64,000 nt of DNA from Promethearchaeota archaeon (GCA_019058295.1 JAHPZI010000001.1:60686-124685); one strand, 5' to 3'. Shown: positions 48,509-60,729, counted from the first letter of the stretch. Made by a program: numbers and translations. Notes: a model not told the origin generated them from the letters alone.

Positions 48509-49672
48509 ATGGTTTCAACGATGACAAGAGAATGGTCTGGGATAATCCTTGCGGGTGGTAAAGGTAAGCGTTTAATGCCTTTAACATCGGAAATTCCAAA
48601 ACCATTAGTGAAAGTCACTAATAAACCAATGATTGATTATTCTATAGCACACTTGATATATGCAGATATTAAGCATATCATTCTCGCATTAGCATATATG
48701 GGCGAAGATATTAAAAAGCATATAAAAAATACATGGACTCCCGATAAACTCGGTGATGTAGAATTAGAATGTGAAATTCATGATAGCAAAGGTACTGCTG
48801 ACGCCTATAGATTACTCACAGATAATCTTGACTCAGAAAATGTTGTTGTCAGTATGGCAGATATAGTTACTTCTCTTCCAATGAAAGATTTTATGGGCTT
48901 TCATAAAGAAAAGGACGGTATGGCCACTATTTCAATGAAGATGGTTGAAAGCCATACTTCTCAATATGGGGTTGTTTTATTAGATAAAAATAGAAAAATT
49001 TATTTATTTTTAGAAAAACCAATGCCTATGGAACTATATTTAAGCAGTATGGCACAAAGAACTGATTTGTTCCTACATACGAATATAATCAACACAGGAA
49101 TTTACTGTTTTAAAAAAGACATTGGAGAAATTCTTCATGAAACAGGATTAATGGATTTTGGCGGTGAAGTATTTCCATATCTTCTTGAAAGTAAATATGA
49201 ATTGTATGGTTTTGTCAGAGATTATTACTGGATGGATGCTGGTAATTATCAAACCTATATGTGGGCGAATTGGGATTTATTGAGGAGATATGCATGGCCA
49301 ATTTCACCAAATGGAGAGGAATACGATGGAGTTTATGTCATGGGAACAATTAATTCGGGTAAAGATATAACTATTGAGAAACCAACTTGTTTTGGAGAAT
49401 ATGTTAAAATTGACGATAATGTGAAAATACGCGAATTAACTACGATTGGAAACAAGGTAACTATTGGAGAGGACGCTATAATAGAAAAAAGTGTTATATG
49501 GGATGACGTGAAAATAGGGGCTGGATGTTATATTAACGAATCAATAATCTGTAACGACTGTACAATAGGGAATAATGTTGTTTTAGAAAGAGTAATTGTA
49601 CCTCCCTATTGTAAAATTTCAAGTAATAACCAATTGAGAGATATAACCCTAGAAGTAGGAAAAAATATATAA
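48509..49672 (+). CDS. sugar-1-phosphate nucleotidyltransferase with left-handed beta-helix
   Basis: ILAGGKGKRLMPLT...PKPL, EKP, NTGIY, DFG..VFP, YWMDAG, hexapeptide repeats. Confidence 0.88.
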   Translation: MVSTMTREWSGIILAGGKGKRLMPLTSEIPKPLVKVTNKPMIDYSIAHLIYADIKHIILALAYMGEDIKKHIKNTWTPDKLGDVELECEIHDSKGTADAYRLLTDNLDSENVVVSMADIVTSLPMKDFMGFHKEKDGMATISMKMVESHTSQYGVVLLDKNRKIYLFLEKPMPMELYLSSMAQRTDLFLHTNIINTGIYCFKKDIGEILHETGLMDFGGEVFPYLLESKYELYGFVRDYYWMDAGNYQTYMWANWDLLRRYAWPISPNGEEYDGVYVMGTINSGKDITIEKPTCFGEYVKIDDNVKIRELTTIGNKVTIGEDAIIEKSVIWDDVKIGAGCYINESIICNDCTIGNNVVLERVIVPPYCKISSNNQLRDITLEVGKNI

Positions 49673-49703
49673 TCTGATTTTTTCCGAACTACCCTTAAAA
49701 AAG

Positions 49704-51449
49704 TTATTTCTTAGCAAACGGTTCAAGATCCAAATCCATAAAAATACCATCGTTAGATTCGAGTGTTCCTAAAAAGTGCCATTCCCCCTCATCAACGTGA
49801 GCGCCTTTACCATAGAGTTCGGCCATTTTATATAACCTATCAAAATTTTCATAGTGTAAAGCAACTCTATTTTCAGCATAATCTCTTGCTGACCAAGTCG
49901 TCATTAAAAATTGCCAATCACTACTTTCCAAAAGTAAAAGCTCTCGCGCCATTTGTTTTAATATTTTCAATAAATGTTCATCAGCATTATCTTTATATTT
50001 CGCAATGATCTCTTCACTCTTACCTTCACACTCATAAATCTTCTCCCATGTCCAAGTTGTCCATTCATTCAACCACACCCAGTGAGAACTTGCTTGTCCC
50101 CACGAGCCTTCAATGATCTGTACAACTTTATTTGGCGGATTTTCTTCGAGATAAAGCCTTGTGTTAGTTAATTCTATTTCAGGATCATCTTCTATCCATC
50201 TTAATACTCTCGCTAACCACCAATTTCCTTCAAACCACCAATGCCCAAATAATTCACAATCATAAGGAGCAACAATAATTCCGTTGTTCCCAAAATTATT
50301 TTTATAATCTCTCAAGATATCCTTAATGAGATTAACATAATGACTTCCATTTTCATCTAATTTTCTTGGAACATCATCTGGCCAATATAACATTTTTGCA
50401 CCAAGGTCTACTTTTGCACCAGTTACCTTCCAATATCGTAAACCCCCAGGATAGTGCTTTTTATGGAAATCTAAATATTCAGCACAGCCAGGATAACCAT
50501 GTTCACCTGACCATACCACAATCCCTGTCTTTTCATCCCTTGTAAAGAATCCAACAGGGGCTGGGGTAGATGGATCTGTAGATACTAAATAAGCTTCATA
50601 TTGTGATTTTTCAAAAGAAGTGGGAATTTCTTCATATTGCGATTCAAATTGTTTCCAGAGTTCTTTAAGTAAAGGAAACCTCGCAGCATAAACACCTTGG
50701 GACTTTCCACCTAATAAAAGGGTAGTATCAATAAAAAAATATTTAAGACCATTCTTAGCGACAAAATATTCAACCCCAGGTCGTTCATATTCTTCTCTTG
50801 AAATAGGGTTTTTCCATCGATACCCAGGACGATAGCCACATTCTGGAAGCCAAACTCCTGTAGGGGCTCTCCCAAAATGATGTTTATAATTATCAACTGC
50901 TGTTTTAAATTGAGCATCAATTGAAGTATCTTTAGATAATAACGGGCAATATCCATGAGTAGCACCACATGTGATAATATCGATCAAATCCATATCTTGG
51001 AGTTTTTTAAAAGCACCAATGATATCTCTATTAAATCTATGAAGAAAATCGTCTCTTACTCGTTCGTAAAATTCCTCCCACCATTTTGTTAATCTGATTC
51101 TACCTTCTTCAAATTTATTTCTCGTAAAATCGTCGTGATCATGAAATGCTGCACTTACTTTCTCGTCTAAGTAACCGAGGAACCCATTAATGAAAGATGG
51201 ATGTCTAAGCATTTCGCATAATACTGGTGTGAGTCCAATAGTTAATTTAGGATGATATCCATCATCAATCAATTTGTAAAGTTCTTGAAGCAATGGGATA
51301 TATGTCTCTGCAGTAGCTTCATTTACCCAGCTAGTTCCGTGTGGCCATATTCTGGATTATGTGAGAAAAACACATAATTTTCCATGATTTAAGACCCACG
51401 GAAGGTGAGAGTGAAGAACTAAACAAAAACTTCCCAATTTCTCTGGCAT
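49704..51449 (-). CDS. GH57 1,4-alpha-glucan branching enzyme, interrupted by a 30-nt insert (571 aa if removed)
   Basis: ATG 51449 gives MPEKLGSFCLVLHSHLPWVLNHG, in frame with WPHGTSWVNEATAETYIPLL and the 529-aa ORF; catalytic WLPEC and PYDCELFGHWW intact; in-frame TAA at 51357-51359. Confidence 0.9.
51350..51379 (-). other. putative 30-nt BHB-like mRNA intron in the branching enzyme gene
   Basis: TGGA-AAA-TTATGTG-TTTTTCT-CACATAA-TCCA-GAA; removing 30 nt restores HG-x-WPHG; boundaries ambiguous by 1-2 nt. Confidence 0.75.
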
Positions 51450-51696
51450 AAAAACAAAAATACGCAATTTCTTAATAATTTTGCCACATTCAATAAATGC
51501 TAAAAATCTCTAAAAAAAGCACAATTAATCGATTTAATTAATTTAAAATCAGTTTTTTTATTTTACTTTTCATTTCTTAAATACTGTGAGATTTTCTTTT
51601 TTTTTAAAAAACAGAAAAATTTAAGAACTTAAACCATATGCAATTAATAATATATATCCAATTGAAATTGAAAAGAAAATATAAATATTTGATTAA

Positions 51697-53079
51697 ATGG
51701 TTGAAAATCTTAAGGAACTTGCAAAGAACGGACGGATCATCGGAAGGGCTAATTTTGTGTTCACGCCAGAGATAGCAAGTAGCATAGGTTCAATTCATGG
51801 TAGTTTATTCAAGCAAAATGAATCTATAGTGATGGGGAGGGATTATCATAATGATTCTAGAATGCTTAAGCGAGGATATACCTCAGGTTGCATGAGTACT
51901 GGAGTGAATCTGTTAAATTTATCGGATTGTGCATATCCTTTATTACAATTCACGATTCGAAGATTTGGAGCGAGTGGGGGTGCTTATTTTTCGGCAGGGC
52001 ATTTATATAGTGAAGATGTTGGAGTAAGATTTGTTGATGCAGGGGGAATTGAATTATCTTCTTTAGAAATTCAAAAAATAATCAATGCTTATAATAATTA
52101 TCCTGAGCAAATACGTAGAGTTGAGCCAAACGAAATTGGTCAAATTACTTCAATCCCTCAGACTAAAGAGATTTATATTAAATCTTTACAGCAATTTATG
52201 AACAAGAAAAGAATAAGAAAAGCGGATCTTAAGATTGTAGTTGATTGTTCTTATGGTCCTAGCGGTAAGATTACGCCATTGTTATTAAATGAGATTGGGG
52301 TAGAGGTCATTGCATTAAATACACATTACCGTCAGAGATCGAGGAATCCAGTTCCCAACATTCATACTATTAGAAACTGTGCAGATATTGTGAAAGCGTC
52401 CAATAGTCATCTTGGTGTATGTTTTGATGTCGATGGTTCCAGAATTCTGGTGTTAGATGAAAGTGGATTAGAAATAAATTTTGAAGATTTACTAATGCTT
52501 TTTATATCTTATGACGAAAGGATAACAAAATCTAAAGCAAACACCATTATAACTACTCCTACAATTTCTTCAACCGCAAAAGATTTTATCAAAGAATCTG
52601 GATATCCATTAAAGGAAGTTGAAAATTATCCTGGAGAGATTTCTAGAAACATTAGACAAGAACGGGCTTGTTTTGCCGCGGCGGATACATTAAAATTTTA
52701 TTTTCCTGAATTTGCTCCGTTTAGCGATGGAAACTTCATTCTTTTAAAGCTCCTTGAAATAATGACTATTCAGGAGGATTTATTAAGTTCATTGACTAGA
52801 GGGTTCCCGAAAGGTATAAAGGTAAATAAATCAATTACAGTCTCTCAAGATATAATTGAAACTTTTCACAATCAATTAAGAAAAGCTGTTGAGGAAAATG
52901 GTTTTAAATATCATGATATCATAAATGAATTAAAGATTATTGACGAGGAGCAAAAAGTTTGTACGCAGGTAAAAATTTCTTTATACAGAAATGCGATACT
53001 TCTTTCTGCAGAATCTGAGAATGTTAACGCAGCGAAAACTATGATAACCGAGCTTGAGAAAATGATTGTTAATTTATAA
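51697..53079 (+). CDS. phosphohexomutase (PGM/PMM)-fold protein with degenerate active site
   Basis: MGRD, KIVVDC.YG, FDVDGSR; expected TASHN is SAGHL. Confidence 0.75.
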   Translation: MVENLKELAKNGRIIGRANFVFTPEIASSIGSIHGSLFKQNESIVMGRDYHNDSRMLKRGYTSGCMSTGVNLLNLSDCAYPLLQFTIRRFGASGGAYFSAGHLYSEDVGVRFVDAGGIELSSLEIQKIINAYNNYPEQIRRVEPNEIGQITSIPQTKEIYIKSLQQFMNKKRIRKADLKIVVDCSYGPSGKITPLLLNEIGVEVIALNTHYRQRSRNPVPNIHTIRNCADIVKASNSHLGVCFDVDGSRILVLDESGLEINFEDLLMLFISYDERITKSKANTIITTPTISSTAKDFIKESGYPLKEVENYPGEISRNIRQERACFAAADTLKFYFPEFAPFSDGNFILLKLLEIMTIQEDLLSSLTRGFPKGIKVNKSITVSQDIIETFHNQLRKAVEENGFKYHDIINELKIIDEEQKVCTQVKISLYRNAILLSAESENVNAAKTMITELEKMIVNL

Positions 53080-53208
53080 ATCAATTTTTATAAAAAAGAT
53101 TTCTACTATTTTAATTTCTTTAAATAAGAATTAAAAGTTTAAAAATACTTGAGATTTAATAATAATAATATAAATTATATTAAACTAAAAAATAAAAAGA
53201 TGTGAATC

Positions 53209-53910
53209 ATGGCAGTAGATGCAGCTGGAATGATCTTTTTGGTATCATTTTTTATAATATGGGGAGTCTTCCTGATCTGGGATTTCTTTCGTAGAATTTC
53301 ATGAATCTCTCATGAAGTACGCAAAGGAGAAAAATATGGCTTCCTAGCTTACATATTAGCTGTAATTCCAGTTAATATGTTATGGGGGTTCGGTTTCAAT
53401 ATTTTAGGTGTTTATATTGTCCTTTTTGTATTATGGATAATTTGTCTTTTTCGTGATTTAATCTTAGTATATGGCAAAACAAAAGAATATGATGATATAT
53501 TGCTATTTTTAGGAATTGGAATTCTAATTCAAGTAATTTTAACAGGAATACTGCCATATATGAATGAAAGTATGCAAACTAATTGTGTGGCAGCCTGGGT
53601 CTTTTGGTTTCCTGATGTTTATAATCCAAATACAAATGCTATACAAAGTTGGGTTAATGCTAACTATCTATTAGGATTTAGAGTAGCAGCAACAGGCATG
53701 GTAATATTAGCTATTTTACCAATGATCTTAGATTTATACTACACGGAAGAACATGTTAATCTTTTAGCAATAATTATTATAGATTGTGTTTTTGTGGCCC
53801 CTTTTCTCTGGCTGGCATACGTTTGGATGGGAGGCATCGGTTGGCCATTGACTTTCTTATTTGCGGTGCTTTTATTTATAGTTTTATTACTATTAACAAG
53901 AGAGAGATAA
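53209..53910 (+). CDS. multi-pass membrane protein, interrupted by a 30-nt insert (223 aa if removed)
   Basis: ATG 53209 encodes a first TM helix (MAVDAAGMIFLVSFFIIWGVFLIWDFFR) in frame with GEKYGFLAYILAVIPVN and the 177-aa ORF; in-frame TGA at 53302-53304. Confidence 0.8.
53295..53324 (+). other. putative 30-nt BHB-like mRNA intron in the membrane protein gene
   Basis: CGTA-GAA-TTTCATGA-ATCTC-TCATGAAG-TACG-CAA; same geometry as, and 17/30 identity to, the 51350-51379 element. Confidence 0.72.
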
Positions 53911-54029
53911 TTAAATATCTTTTTTTTATTTTTTTTTTGTTTGTTATTAAATTTTTTATGCTTATTTTTATATATAATTATAGGTTAAAGAGTGATAATC
54001 TAAATTTTAATTAAAAAAGAGATTTTATA

Positions 54030-55025
54030 ATGGCAAAAAAAAAAGGTCAATTAGATACGGATGATGAGGTCAATGAGTCAAATCTTAATAAAACCTACTC
54101 TTTAAAAGATTTACCGGGAGTAGGAGAAGCGACTTTAAAAAAATTAAAAGAGGCTGGAATTACATCTATTAGATCCCTTGCGATGGTCCCCAAACAATCA
54201 TTAATGGATGATGCGTCCATTGGCGAAAAGACAGCTGAAAAATTAATTAAACTTGCCCAAGATATTGAAAAAATGGGATTTAAATCAGCCAATGAGATTT
54301 GGGAAAAAAGAAAAGGATTGAAAAAATTGACTACGGGAAGTCAAAATTTGGACGAATTGTTAGCCGGGGGTATAGAAACAGGGGCAGTAACAGAGATTTT
54401 TGGGGAATATAGAACAGGTAAGACTCAGCTTGCTCATCAACTTTGCGTTAATGTACAATTAAAAGAAGAGGAAGGAGGCCTTGAAGGTAGCGCTTTATAT
54501 ATAGATAGTGAAGGAACATTTAGACCTGAAAGAATACTTCAAATGGCAGAAGCAAAGGATTTGGATCATAATAAAGTATTAAAAAATATTACAATTGGAC
54601 GAGCGTATAATAGTGACCACCAGATTCTCTTAATAAAGGATGCTCCAAAAATCATAGAAGAAAAGAATATTAAGGTAATTATTGTTGATTCGCTAATTAG
54701 TCATTTTCGCGCCGAATATATTGGAAGGGGTACACTTGCCTCTAGACAGCAAATATTAAATAGCCATATTCATGATTTATTAAGATTAACCGAAACTTAT
54801 GAATTAGCCGCCGTTTTTACAAATCAAGTCTCATCTAGACCAGATGTTTTTTATGGGAATCCTATAACCCATACCGGAGGTCATATAGTCGCCCATGGTG
54901 CTACTATTAGAATTTATTTGAGAAAAGGAAAAGGAGAGCAGAGAGTTGCTAAAGTTGTTGATGCTCCTCATTTACCAGAAGAAGATGCTGTTTTTTCTAT
55001 AACTGAAGATGGTATTGGAGATTAA
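54030..55025 (+). CDS. radA: DNA repair and recombination protein RadA
   Basis: N-terminal Hh[34 protein letters not shown]; no intein. Confidence 0.96.
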
Positions 55026-60123: not shown

Positions 60124-60729
60124 TTGATGGAAAAAAAGGAAAACATTCAGATTTCGCTTGATAATATCAACGAAGATGATATCCCGGATAAAATTCCAAC
60201 GAAATTCATTAATTCGAGAGTTGTCATTTTTAATCCTCTTTATGCCTCTTACTTGTATGTGAAGGAAAAGTTTTTTGGCTCTCCCCTTGGAATAAGTAAA
60301 CCGCGCCTTGAGTATTTCTCAAAACCTTCGGAATTATCGCTTATTGAAGCTTATTACCTATTAGAAAATGATAAGATTACTATTTTTGATGTTAAAAGAG
60401 AAAAAGATCTTAGTGCTAAGGAATTTTTTGAAATTGCCAAACAAATACACCATAAATTTGAGGAAAAATATGTAATTTATAAAGATTTAAGAGAAAAAGG
60501 ATATGTTCCTCGACCAGGGCTGAAATTTGGAGCTGATTTTGTAGTATATAAGAAAGGACCAGGATTAGAGCACTCTCCCTTTATTGTACACGTATTACCT
60601 CATGAATCTAAAATTAGTGCAATCGATATGGTCAGAGCTGGAAGATTAGCTACATCTGTTAGAAAAAAATTTGTTATTGCAAATCCCCAAACTATAAACT
60701 ACTATTTTTTTACGTGGTTTAAGCCATGA
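60124..60729 (+). CDS. endA: tRNA-intron (BHB) splicing endonuclease
   Basis: LSLIEAYYL, Y.DLR.KGY, GLKFGADF.VY..GPG..H, R...SVRK (Tyr/His/Lys triad). Confidence 0.92.
   Translation: MMEKKENIQISLDNINEDDIPDKIPTKFINSRVVIFNPLYASYLYVKEKFFGSPLGISKPRLEYFSKPSELSLIEAYYLLENDKITIFDVKREKDLSAKEFFEIAKQIHHKFEEKYVIYKDLREKGYVPRPGLKFGADFVVYKKGPGLEHSPFIVHVLPHESKISAIDMVRAGRLATSVRKKFVIANPQTINYYFFTWFKP

What the first reader, a model, noticed from the sequence alone, without database searches (positions are those of the whole stretch)
51350..53324. Candidate family of 30-nt hairpin mini-introns in protein-coding genes, with conserved sequence, covarying stems and an off-register BHB
Seen: two unrelated genes on opposite strands carry inserts that align without gaps, AATTATGTGTTTTTCTCACATAATCCAGAA and AATTTCATGAATCTCTCATGAAGTACGCAA (17/30 identical). 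Stem differences are compensatory (ATG/CAT vs TCA/TGA). In each, 4 nt near the 3' end are the exact complement of that gene's own upstream exon (TGGA/TCCA; CGTA/TACG). Geometry is identical: 4-bp helix, NAA bulge, 21-nt hairpin, 4-nt complement, NAA. Both sit at codon ~24-29, hold an in-frame stop and fall in different codon phases. Known: archaeal EndA cuts bulge-helix-bulge motifs after the second bulge nucleotide, and BHB introns in mRNAs are rare (crenarchaeal cbf5 is the classic case). Inference: this is a dispersed mRNA-intron family in an Asgard archaeon. Canonical cuts would excise 28 nt and frameshift both genes, while the frame needs 30 (or 27). That implies a shifted cleavage register, end trimming before ligation, or ribosomal bypass of the hairpin. 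A manual scan found no third copy in the window.
Basis: partly seen in the sequence, partly recalled or inferred. Interest (0 to 1): 0.97.

Follow-up and report, generated by a model that had tools for sequence, protein, structure and literature searches.

The report
Two 30-base tRNA-type mini-introns in protein genes
Two protein genes of this Asgard archaeon each carry an exact 30-base hairpin insert with a stop codon, and both inserts have the shape of a tRNA-type intron; they belong to a large, fast-changing set of such mini-introns in this genus's protein genes, a kind of mRNA splicing I found published for only one archaeal gene (cbf5).

Summary
Both 30-mers are exact 30-nt insertions that orthologues lack: GH57 branching enzyme reads NHG^IWPHG and the membrane protein reads FFRR^GEKYG.

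Insert 2 is identical in three related genomes and present in a metagenome from another study. Its host gene is under purifying selection (dN/dS 0.27). Insert 1 occurs only in this strain.

The "off-register BHB" puzzle dissolves. If U24 closes the intron hairpin with A2 instead of pairing with exon A-1, both inserts fit the canonical bulge-helix-bulge layout. The price is a central helix with 3 of 4 pairs (a relaxed motif).

The same 1+9+5+9+4+2 architecture occurs in argG, uL11 and HMG-CoA synthase of this genome. Six further 29-32-nt inserts are polymorphic against the nearest relative. All lie on the sense strand and all restore textbook motifs.

The two inserts are not a sequence family: 17/30 identity lies within the class range and no other copies exist.

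Two EndA paralogues are present. RtcB was found only in relatives. No RNA read bridged either site, so splicing is inferred, not shown.

This scan has reported the same kind of mini-intron before on other Asgard genomes.

The parts
51350..51379 (-). Mini-intron 1 (30 nt) in the GH57 branching-enzyme gene. Sense strand: A | AUUAUGUG(U) UUUUC (U)CACAUAAU | CCAG | AA. It holds an in-frame TAA.
   Evidence: Absent from all orthologues and from a related strain's contig. BHB register with 3/4 central pairs and an 8-bp stem.
49704..51452 (-). GH57 1,4-alpha-glucan branching enzyme gene (571 codons once the 30 nt are removed). Exon 1 is about 51380-51452; exon 2 runs from 51349 down to the stop.
   Evidence: Pfam Glyco_hydro_57 plus BE_C. 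Single match in G000. dN/dS 0.14 against G007 with no indels.
51381..51384 (-). Exon 1 half of the central helix H for intron 1 (sense AUGG, 3 of 4 pairs with intron CCAG). The 5' bulge is A-A|A at 51379-51381.
   Evidence: Geometry function checked on the tRNA-Pro(UGG) intron, then applied to this insert.
53295..53324 (+). Mini-intron 2 (30 nt) in a conserved membrane-protein gene: A | AUUUCAUGA AUCUC UCAUGAAGU | ACGC | AA. It holds an in-frame TGA.
   Evidence: Identical in G000, G007 and G005; absent from G002, G006 and more distant orthologues. BHB register with 3/4 central pairs and a 9-bp stem, which is also the RNAfold minimum-free-energy fold for the 5' bulge and hairpin.
53209..53910 (+). 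Membrane-protein gene (223 codons after removal, no Pfam family), conserved in 39 of 41 related genomes.
   Evidence: dN/dS 0.27 between the two intron-bearing genomes (binomial P = 0.002).
53290..53293 (+). Exon 1 half of the central helix H for intron 2 (UCGU, 3 of 4 pairs with intron ACGC). The 5' bulge is A-G|A at 53293-53295.
60124..60729 (+). EndA splicing endonuclease, catalytic-subunit type (201 aa). A second paralogue lies on contig C26.
   Evidence: Pfam tRNA_int_endo, 108 bits. The closest solved chains are the Aeropyrum, Sulfolobus and Pyrobaculum heterotetramer subunits. Second paralogue.

Best explanation
Both inserts are relaxed bulge-helix-bulge (BHB) mini-introns in pre-mRNA.

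Proposed fold. After transcription, the last exon-1 nucleotides pair with four intron nucleotides just before the 3' end, and three of the four pairs form. A 23-nt intron hairpin stacks on this helix. The splice sites lie in A-rich 3-nt bulges: A-N|A at the 5' site and A-A|N at the 3' site.

Proposed reaction. The heteromeric (alpha-beta)2-type splicing endonuclease EndA cuts after the second nucleotide of each bulge. This releases exactly the 30 nt. An RtcB-type ligase then joins the exons and restores HG-I-WPHG and FFRR-GEKYG.

Shown here:
- the exact 30-nt insertion;
- the fold;
- the class of like inserts;
- purifying selection on a host gene;
- presence of EndA.

Inferred: cleavage, ligation and the cleavage register.
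For: 1. Exact 30-nt presence or absence against orthologues.

2. My BHB geometry reproduces the tRNA-Pro(UGG) intron of this genome at shift 0, with 4/4 central pairs and a 7-bp exon helix. Under that geometry both inserts score 3/4 central pairs plus 8- or 9-bp stems at exactly L = 30.

3. The same 1+9+5+9+4+2 = 30 architecture interrupts argG (SGGL^DTS), uL11 (PIGPV^VGPTG) and HMG-CoA synthase in G000.

4. Aligning 593 kb of G007 to G000 gave 6 G007-only inserts of 29, 30 (four of them) and 32 nt.
- All are on the coding strand and all restore motifs such as DTYWQ^TETGG, GAV^GANMGRNIFQ and EAMAE^KQVT.
- In 5 of 5 testable cases the canonical cut register is among the best fits to the intron-less orthologue, and uniquely best in one.
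- Lengths of 28, 29 and 32 nt cannot be translated through.

5. The single-copy uL11 gene keeps its intron in 5 genomes.
- 100% of central-helix cells stay paired through GC, GU and AU changes.
- One of these is an exon-plus-intron double change.

6. The gene holding insert 2 has dN/dS 0.27 between two intron-bearing genomes, with no indels (P = 0.002). The intron itself has 0 changes in 30 nt.

7. The enzymes.
- There are two EndA paralogues, and the one in the window is closest to crenarchaeal heterotetramer catalytic subunits.
- Asgard (alpha-beta)2 EndA carries the L1 loop linked to relaxed-motif cleavage (PMC5829648).
- cbf5 pre-mRNA introns also often use relaxed motifs (PMC2738675).
- RtcB is present in G007, G004 and G006.

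8. With the strictest filter, sense-strand candidates outnumber antisense decoys 11 to 1.
Against: - No RNA evidence: no RNA-run contig bridges either site.
- The central helix has only 3 of 4 pairs in both inserts.
- The exon-exon helix is absent for insert 1 and is only two G-U pairs for insert 2.
[quoted passage not shown] That figure allows a +/-3-nt window and ignores the hairpin (bioRxiv 10.64898/2026.10.13.758758).
- A rival conformer with a 4/4 helix is isoenergetic: e1 -9.2 vs -8.4 kcal/mol, e2 -8.6 vs -8.7 kcal/mol. It is the minimum-free-energy fold for insert 1. It would give a frameshifting 28-nt excision.
- In the minimum-free-energy fold of insert 2 the 3' bulge AAA is paired with upstream U's.
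- RtcB was not found in G000 itself, which is 79% complete.
- Insert 1 is recent and strain-specific, so selection since its insertion cannot be measured.
Confidence: 0.78

Rival explanations
1. Insert 1, or both inserts, are plain gene-disrupting insertions. On this reading the 30-nt hairpins landed in the genes, the mRNAs keep them, and the genes are pseudogenes or are re-initiated downstream.
For: - Insert 1 exists only in this strain, so no post-insertion selection can be shown.
- Its BHB is relaxed and lacks an exon-exon helix.
- A TTG-initiated 529-aa ORF remains downstream.
- There is no RNA evidence.
Against: - Insert 2 is retained, identical, in three diverged genomes while its gene evolves at dN/dS 0.27 without indels.
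- Both genes are single matches in G000.
- The restart ORF of the GH57 gene would lose the conserved HSHLPW...HG.WPHG block.
- The same kind of insert sits in single-copy uL11, argG and HMG-CoA synthase, which cannot all be dead.
- This hairpin-plus-helix architecture is rare by chance, about 2.7e-5 per position.
Confidence: 0.1
2. Programmed translational bypass or read-through. The mRNA keeps the 30 nt, and ribosomes either hop over the hairpin (as in T4 gene 60 or the Magnusiomyces mitochondrial 'byps') or read through the stop and make a 10-residue longer protein.
For: - Both inserts are multiples of 3, hold a hairpin and hold a stop.
Against: - The codon before the gap and the triplet before the resumption codon do not match: GGA vs AGA, and AGA vs AAA.
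- The stop is 7 or 3 codons into the insert, not next to the take-off codon (read).
- The matched-codon requirement is from my own knowledge of T4 gene 60 and the Magnusiomyces byps.
- Class members of 28, 29 and 32 nt share the same architecture.
- Exon-intron central-helix pairing is conserved by covariation in uL11. Bypass does not need that pairing.
- The two stops differ (TAA and TGA), so a single recoding event is unlikely.
Confidence: 0.05
3. EndA cuts in the reader's 4/4-helix register and removes 28 nt. The frame is then corrected by end trimming, or the event serves as a frameshifting off-switch that competes with the productive 30-nt register.
For: - The two conformers are isoenergetic, and the 4/4 form is the minimum-free-energy fold for insert 1.
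- A 28-nt version of the architecture (1+8+5+8+4+2) exists in uL11 of G006 and G002.
Against: - The DNA-level insertion is 30 nt in both genes.
- In 5 of 5 testable relatives' introns, the DNA boundary fits the canonical cut sites.
- A 28-nt excision runs into stops within a few codons (read).
- Purifying selection on gene 2 requires a productive product.
- No enzyme for 2-nt trimming before RtcB ligation is known to me (own knowledge).
Confidence: 0.07

Closest known systems
BHB intron in cbf5 pre-mRNA of Crenarchaeota (Desulfurococcales and Sulfolobales; Watanabe 2002, Yoshinari 2006, Yokobori 2009 = PMC2738675)
   Same: [quoted passage not shown]
- The motif is often relaxed.
- The host has a heteromeric splicing endonuclease.
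- The intron is gained and lost between related lineages.
   Different: - cbf5 is one gene in one phylum, with RT-PCR proof of splicing.
- Here there are many genes per genome in an Asgard lineage.
- The form is a stereotyped ~30-nt one (9-bp stem, 5-nt loop, A-rich bulges).
- Presence or absence varies between genomes about 90% identical in DNA (blastn).
- There is no RNA proof yet for these two.
Non-canonical tRNA introns of Asgard and TACK archaea (Marck and Grosjean 2003; bioRxiv 10.64898/2026.10.13.758758)
   Same: - Same predicted enzyme and same geometry.
- Similar sizes: tRNA-Pro introns of 28 and 30 nt in this genome.
- Repeated independent gains, and relaxed motifs in a substantial minority.
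   Different: - The host RNA is an mRNA, so the exon half of the motif is coding sequence.
- Removal must be exact to the nucleotide to keep the reading frame.
- That preprint does not treat protein-coding genes.
Programmed ribosomal bypass elements (T4 gene 60; 'byps' of Magnusiomyces mitochondria)
   Same: Short (27-55 nt) hairpin-bearing inserts with stops inside coding sequence. They look mobile and are absent from orthologues (own knowledge).
   Different: - Bypass needs matched take-off and landing triplets and a stop next to the take-off codon. Neither is present here (read).
- Bypass does not need exon-intron pairing, yet that pairing is conserved here.
Ire1/RtcB unconventional splicing of HAC1/XBP1 mRNA
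   Same: Spliceosome-independent removal of a small mRNA intron (26 nt in XBP1) at stem-loop cut sites, joined by an RtcB or tRNA ligase (own knowledge; PMC6592678 listed).
   Different: - A different endonuclease (Ire1) and twin 7-nt loops rather than a BHB.
- It is a regulated frame switch in one mRNA, not a constitutive repair of many genes.

Membership tests
Archaeal BHB (EndA-spliced) intron | An intervening sequence that is absent from intron-less homologues and whose exact removal restores the functional sequence | tested here: met
   Exactly 30 nt are extra in both genes. Removal gives NHG^IWPHG and FFRR^GEKYG, as in 19 and 30+ orthologous loci respectively.
Archaeal BHB (EndA-spliced) intron | [quoted passage not shown] | tested here: inconclusive
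   - In the register that removes 30 nt, 3 of 4 central pairs form in both inserts. The outer pair is A.G or U.C.
- A 4/4 helix exists only in a register that removes 28 nt.
- Other bona fide-looking class members also have 3/4 pairs: the acs insert L106 and the HMG-CoA synthase insert.
Archaeal BHB (EndA-spliced) intron | At least one flanking helix: intron hairpin h' and/or exon-exon helix h | tested here: met
   - h' is 8 bp (insert 1) and 9 bp (insert 2). The hairpins fold with z-scores of -3.5 and -4.4.
- The exon-exon helix h is absent for insert 1 and is 2 G-U pairs for insert 2. The motif class is therefore HBh'.
Archaeal BHB (EndA-spliced) intron | Cuts after the second nucleotide of each bulge reproduce the true intron boundaries | tested here: met
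   - The rule reproduces the tRNA-Pro(UGG) intron.
- It is among the best-fitting registers in 5 of 5 relatives' mRNA introns.
- For the two inserts the predicted cuts fall within the 4 (insert 1) and 2 (insert 2) registers that the orthologues allow.
Archaeal BHB (EndA-spliced) intron | The host encodes a splicing endonuclease able to cut relaxed motifs, and an RtcB-type ligase | tested here: inconclusive
   - Two full-length EndA paralogues, consistent with an (alpha-beta)2 enzyme.
- I did not inspect the L1 loop.
- RtcB was not found in the 79%-complete G000, but is present in G007, G004 and G006.
Archaeal BHB (EndA-spliced) intron | Spliced mRNA junction and/or a circular excised intron seen in RNA | tested here: inconclusive
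   The one RNA run that holds part of the stretch has contigs inside both genes, but none crosses either insert.
Repeated mobile-element family (copies related by descent) | Several copies with sequence identity above background, at different loci | tested here: not met
   - No second copy within 8 mismatches in G000, or within 3 mismatches in 41 genomes.
- e1-e2 identity of 17/30 lies within the class spread.
- By contrast, the uL11 and uS11 inserts are 21/30 identical within G000, or 23/30 against the G004 uL11 copy.
Programmed translational bypass element | Identical take-off and landing triplets, with a stop or hungry codon next to the take-off codon | tested here: not met
   GGA vs AGA for insert 1, and AGA vs AAA for insert 2. 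The stops lie 7 and 3 codons into the inserts (read).

The most novel reading that the evidence does not exclude
These two inserts may be snapshots of an ongoing, genome-wide gain and loss of stereotyped 30-nt BHB mini-introns in Lokiarchaeia-type Asgard protein genes.

The supporting observations:
- The density is about one polymorphic site per 85 kb between genomes about 90% identical in DNA.
- Each copy is unique in sequence.
- All are built to one plan: A, then a 9-bp stem, an ANYTC loop, a 4-nt exon complement, then AA.
- They often sit inside the most conserved protein motifs.

That pattern would imply a dedicated insertion route. One possibility is reverse EndA/RtcB splicing of small hairpin RNAs into mRNAs, followed by reverse transcription. 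Another is a DNA-level hairpin inserter. Either would make this lineage a living model of intron gain in the closest prokaryotic relatives of eukaryotes.

The isoenergetic 28- and 30-nt registers could also let some copies act as splicing-dependent on/off switches.
Probability: 0.3. Interest if true: 0.92.

Novelty: new variant of a known kind. Interest (0 to 1): 0.72.

Why it matters
EndA-type splicing of archaeal mRNA is published, as far as I could find, only for cbf5 in Crenarchaeota. Six of my seven full-text searches turned up no paper on Asgard mRNA introns.

If dozens of protein genes per genome need endonuclease splicing in the archaeal lineage closest to eukaryotes, several things follow.
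- Gene callers mis-annotate many essential genes as split or truncated. Examples here are uL11, uS11, argG, HMG-CoA synthase, the CODH/ACS subunits and actin.
- The substrate range of the Asgard (alpha-beta)2 EndA must extend to relaxed motifs in coding RNA.
- Intron gain and loss can be watched at strain level.

For these two loci specifically, the work replaces an exotic reading (shifted cleavage or bypass) with an ordinary one. It also gives a precise, testable junction for each.

Tried and rejected
1. RNA evidence. One metatranscriptome run held 6% of the words. Its contigs lie inside both genes but none bridges an insert, so this says nothing either way.

2. Sequence-copy searches for e1 and e2. 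I searched G000 with up to 10 mismatches and 41 genomes with up to 3 mismatches. Only the orthologous copies of e2 came up.

3. Genome-wide BHB plus ORF-restoration scans.
- With loose criteria there was no enrichment over shifted-window controls: about 51,000 hits against about 51,000. That control is poor, because a shifted window still removes the stop.
- The structural motif alone is no more frequent than in the reversed genome: 173 against 209 hits at L = 30.
- Only with coding-score filters and an antisense decoy did enrichment appear: 11 against 1 in the strictest bin.
- I therefore give no total intron count for G000.

4. Local-duplication origin. The longest intron-flank matches equal the shuffled controls.

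5. Target-site duplication. Boundary repeats are 3, 1, 2, 1, 0 and 2 nt, which is not consistent.

6. Rfam. No family matches in 49000-55000 at E up to 1.

7. A 30-nt insertion in G000 at C15:77648 is an ordinary in-frame coding indel without a stop, not an intron.

8. Pfam Profilin as an Asgard marker. Nothing matched anywhere, controls included, so it is uninformative.

9. ARAGORN finds only 9 intron-bearing tRNAs and handles non-canonical positions poorly. I used it only to validate the geometry.


Full report
OBSERVATION

Both 30-mers are present once each, at 51350-51379 on the minus strand and at 53295-53324 on the plus strand.

The first lies in a GH57 1,4-alpha-glucan branching enzyme gene (Pfam Glyco_hydro_57 plus BE_C). 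The unspliced frame reads ...HLPWVLNHGKLCVFLT*SRIWPHGTSW....

The second lies in a conserved membrane-protein gene with no Pfam family. It reads ...WDFFRRIS*ISHEVRKGEKYGF..., and the same frame stays open to 53910.

COMPARISON WITH ORTHOLOGUES

I searched 40 related genomes with each protein.

For GH57, every orthologue read gives NHG[IV]WPHG with no insert. This includes G007 and G005 at 94% identity. Their matches are exactly 30 nt shorter.

For the membrane protein, the orthologues read FFRRGEKYG. The 30 nt are present and identical in G000, G007 and G005. They are absent from G002 and G006 (87% identical) and from all more distant genomes.

The boundaries are ambiguous by a GAA repeat for insert 1 (four registers) and by one A for insert 2 (two registers).

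READ AND CONTIG EVIDENCE

The contig of the probable source run holds both inserts. A contig from another sample of the same study lacks exactly 30 nt at site 1. A contig from an unrelated soil study spans insert 2 without a gap. The inserts are therefore real DNA, and insert 1 is a strain-level polymorphism.

The only RNA run that holds any of the stretch has no contig crossing either site. There is no RNA evidence in either direction.

GEOMETRY

The canonical motif, read 5' to 3', is:
- exon helix h;
- central helix H (4 exon nucleotides);
- bulge b1 (3 nt, cut after the second);
- intron helix h' and its loop;
- H' (4 intron nucleotides);
- bulge b2 (3 nt, cut after the second);
- the other strand of h.

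This layout matches the description in bioRxiv 10.64898/2026.10.13.758758. My implementation reproduces the tRNA-Pro(UGG) intron of this genome at shift 0, with 4/4 central pairs and a 7-bp anticodon stem.

That gives a 4/4 helix, but symmetric cuts then lie 28 nt apart.

If U24 instead closes the intron hairpin with A2, both inserts take one and the same layout:
- b1 = A-A|A for insert 1 and A-G|A for insert 2;
- a 23-nt hairpin, 8 or 9 bp;
- H' = CCAG or ACGC, pairing 3 of 4 with exon AUGG or UCGU (the outer pair is A.G or U.C);
- b2 = A-A|U or A-A|A.

The two conformers are isoenergetic. For e1 the energies are -9.2 and -8.4 kcal/mol, and for e2 they are -8.6 and -8.7 kcal/mol. Thermodynamics does not decide between them. 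The reading frame and the orthologues do.

No shifted cleavage, trimming or bypass is needed. The cost is a relaxed (HBh'-type) motif.

Relaxed motifs are what heteromeric EndA enzymes carrying the L1 loop cleave, and Asgard archaea have that enzyme type (PMC5829648). [quoted passage not shown]

THE CLASS

An ORF-restoring scan at L = 30 found the same 1+9+5+9+4+2 architecture in three other G000 genes:
- argG: junction SGGL^DTS, 4/4 central pairs;
- uL11: PIGPV^VGPTG, 4/4 central pairs, 7-bp exon helix;
- HMG-CoA synthase: RELVA^KAWDF, 3/4 central pairs.

For an unbiased sample I fetched 0.98 Mb of G007, which is about 90% identical to G000 in DNA, and aligned 593 kb of it. Indel lengths peak at 30 nt.

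Six G007-only inserts have BHB geometry. All six lie on the coding strand and restore textbook motifs:
- CODH alpha: P^ICDMCCLC, 30 nt;
- an unnamed gene: 30 nt;
- class I aldolase: GAV^GANMGRNIFQ, 32 nt;
- MoxR ATPase: EAMAE^KQVT, 29 nt;
- acetyl-CoA synthase: YYGCV^LCQSFAP, 30 nt;
- acetyl-CoA synthetase: DTYWQ^TETGG, 30 nt, 3/4 central pairs.

Insert 1 is the only G000-only case.

In 5 of 5 testable cases the canonical cut register is among the best fits to the intron-less G000 sequence. In one case it is uniquely the best.

Across 11 introns, 7 have 4/4 central pairs and 4 have 3/4. The two inserts of this finding are therefore ordinary members in that respect.

With coding-score filters, sense-strand candidates outnumber antisense decoys 11 to 1 in the strictest bin. 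Looser scans are swamped by background, so I give no genome total.

uL11 AS A CONTROL FOR FUNCTION

uL11 is a single match in G000. Its intron is shared by G000, G007 and G004 (30 nt) and by G006 and G002 (28 nt, with a stem one pair shorter). At least one further intron site lies about 8 codons downstream in G005 and G022.

On the five-genome alignment:
- 96.9% of cells pair;
- all four central-helix pairs vary yet stay paired (GC, GU, AU);
- one variation is a G-C to A-U double change, made of a synonymous exon change plus an intron change;
- sliding the 3' partner by one column drops pairing to 45-51%.

With only five sequences the statistics are weak (34 of 500 shuffles reach the observed score). 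Still, an essential single-copy gene that carries a frame-breaking 28-nt version of the insert cannot be translated through.

SELECTION

The gene with insert 2 differs between G000 and G007 by about 27 substitutions, with no indels. dN/dS is 0.27, and a binomial test for an excess of synonymous changes gives P = 0.002. The intron-less pair G002 and G006 gives 0.14.

The intron itself has 0 changes in 30 nt, where synonymous divergence is 0.10.

GH57 gives dN/dS 0.14 over 571 codons. Because insert 1 is recent, this does not isolate the period after insertion.

ENZYMES AND TAXON

Two full-length EndA paralogues are present. The one in the window (60124-60729) is closest to the catalytic subunits of the Aeropyrum, Sulfolobus and Pyrobaculum heterotetramers. 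The other is divergent.

RtcB was not found in G000, which is 79% complete. It is present in G007, G004 and G006.

A 407-bit Pfam actin hit supports the Asgard assignment.

IS IT A SEQUENCE FAMILY?

No.
- Nine 30-nt introns aligned in register share on average 11.7 of 30 positions (sd 2.8).
- The e1-e2 pair, at 17, ties with uL11-L041 for the maximum.
- What is conserved across the class is A1, a loop of the form A-N-Y-U-C, and A29-A30.
- The 'compensatory' stem differences are what any two hairpins show when laid in one register.
- No further copies exist.

Real sequence kinship does occur elsewhere. The uS11 insert of G000 is 21/30 identical to the G000 uL11 intron and 23/30 identical to the G004 copy.

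No signal of local duplication or of a consistent target-site duplication was found. How new copies arise is unexplained.

RIVALS

- Pseudogenisation cannot be excluded for the strain-specific insert 1. It is contradicted for insert 2 by selection, and for the class by the essential genes involved.
- Bypass lacks matched take-off and landing triplets. It also does not explain the conserved exon-intron pairing or the 28-, 29- and 32-nt members.
- A 28-nt register would frameshift.

Rfam has nothing in the region.

PRIOR WORK

I found no paper on BHB introns in Asgard mRNAs.

Earlier notes of this scan describe the same kind of mini-intron in other genes of this genome and in other Asgard genomes. 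One of those notes reports an RNA-derived contig that lacks a 29-nt insert. These are unverified AI notes. I re-derived the uL11 and uS11 cases myself and used the rest only as leads.

VERDICT

The two inserts are very probably EndA-spliced relaxed-BHB mini-introns (confidence 0.78), one of them a recent strain-level gain. Splicing itself remains to be shown in RNA.

Noticed in passing
window 42074 (G000 C1:102759); L041:12006-12035: G007 carries a canonical 30-nt BHB insert (4/4 central helix, 9-10-bp stem) in a CODH-alpha-like gene, at P^ICDMCCLC. G000 lacks it at the orthologous site inside this window.
   Followed up: partly
L051, L062, L072, L082, L106 (G007 contigs): Five more G007-only mini-introns (30, 32, 29, 30 and 30 nt), all on the sense strand. 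Four hosts are identifiable: class I aldolase, MoxR ATPase, acetyl-CoA synthase and acetyl-CoA synthetase. Those four sit inside the most conserved motif of the protein.
   Followed up: partly
G000 C30:126695-126724 (-), L119; L122-L128: The single-copy uL11 gene carries a textbook hBHBh' intron. It is 30 nt in G000, G007 and G004, and 28 nt in G006 and G002. The central helix covaries between exon and intron. A second, different intron site lies about 8 codons downstream in G005 and G022.
   Followed up: yes
G000 C1:158861-158890 (-): The uS11 gene (PYAA^MQCGF) has a 30-nt insert that is 21/30 identical to the G000 uL11 intron and 23/30 identical to the G004 copy. At the register that restores Met, only 1 of 4 canonical central pairs forms. 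This is either a much more relaxed substrate or a different junction.
   Followed up: partly
G000 C2 (-), L120 (argG); G000 C7:54449-54478 (+), L121: argG (SGGL^DTS) and HMG-CoA synthase (RELVA^KAWDF) each hold a 30-nt insert of the same 1+9+5+9+4+2 plan, with in-frame stops.
   Followed up: partly
G006:C13:33313-34649: The RtcB ligase gene of G006 matches the Pfam model in two pieces that are 26 nt apart on one strand. This may be a mini-intron inside the ligase gene that would be needed to splice it.
   Followed up: no
nine 30-nt introns: Class-wide conserved positions: A1, loop A11-N-Y-U14-C15, and A29-A30. By eye, the two middle nucleotides of the exon half of the central helix form a Watson-Crick palindrome (CG, GC or AT) in about 8 of 11 introns. 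I did not test this statistically.
   Followed up: partly
window 49704-53910 vs L002/L022 (G007 C100): Synonymous divergence between G000 and G007 is 0.39 in the GH57 gene but 0.10 in the membrane-protein gene about 2 kb away. This hints at recombination or mosaic ancestry in the interval that also differs by insert 1.
   Followed up: no
G000 C2:177094-178152 (-): The actin homologue matches Pfam Actin only up to position 390 of 410, in a 368-aa open frame. This agrees with a first-reader note that mini-introns cut off its C-terminus. I did not check it.
   Followed up: no
G000 C28 about 203700-203830: A run of about 100 N (an assembly gap) flanked by a short direct repeat. It appears as a false 106-nt 'insertion' in the G000-G007 alignment.
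   Followed up: no
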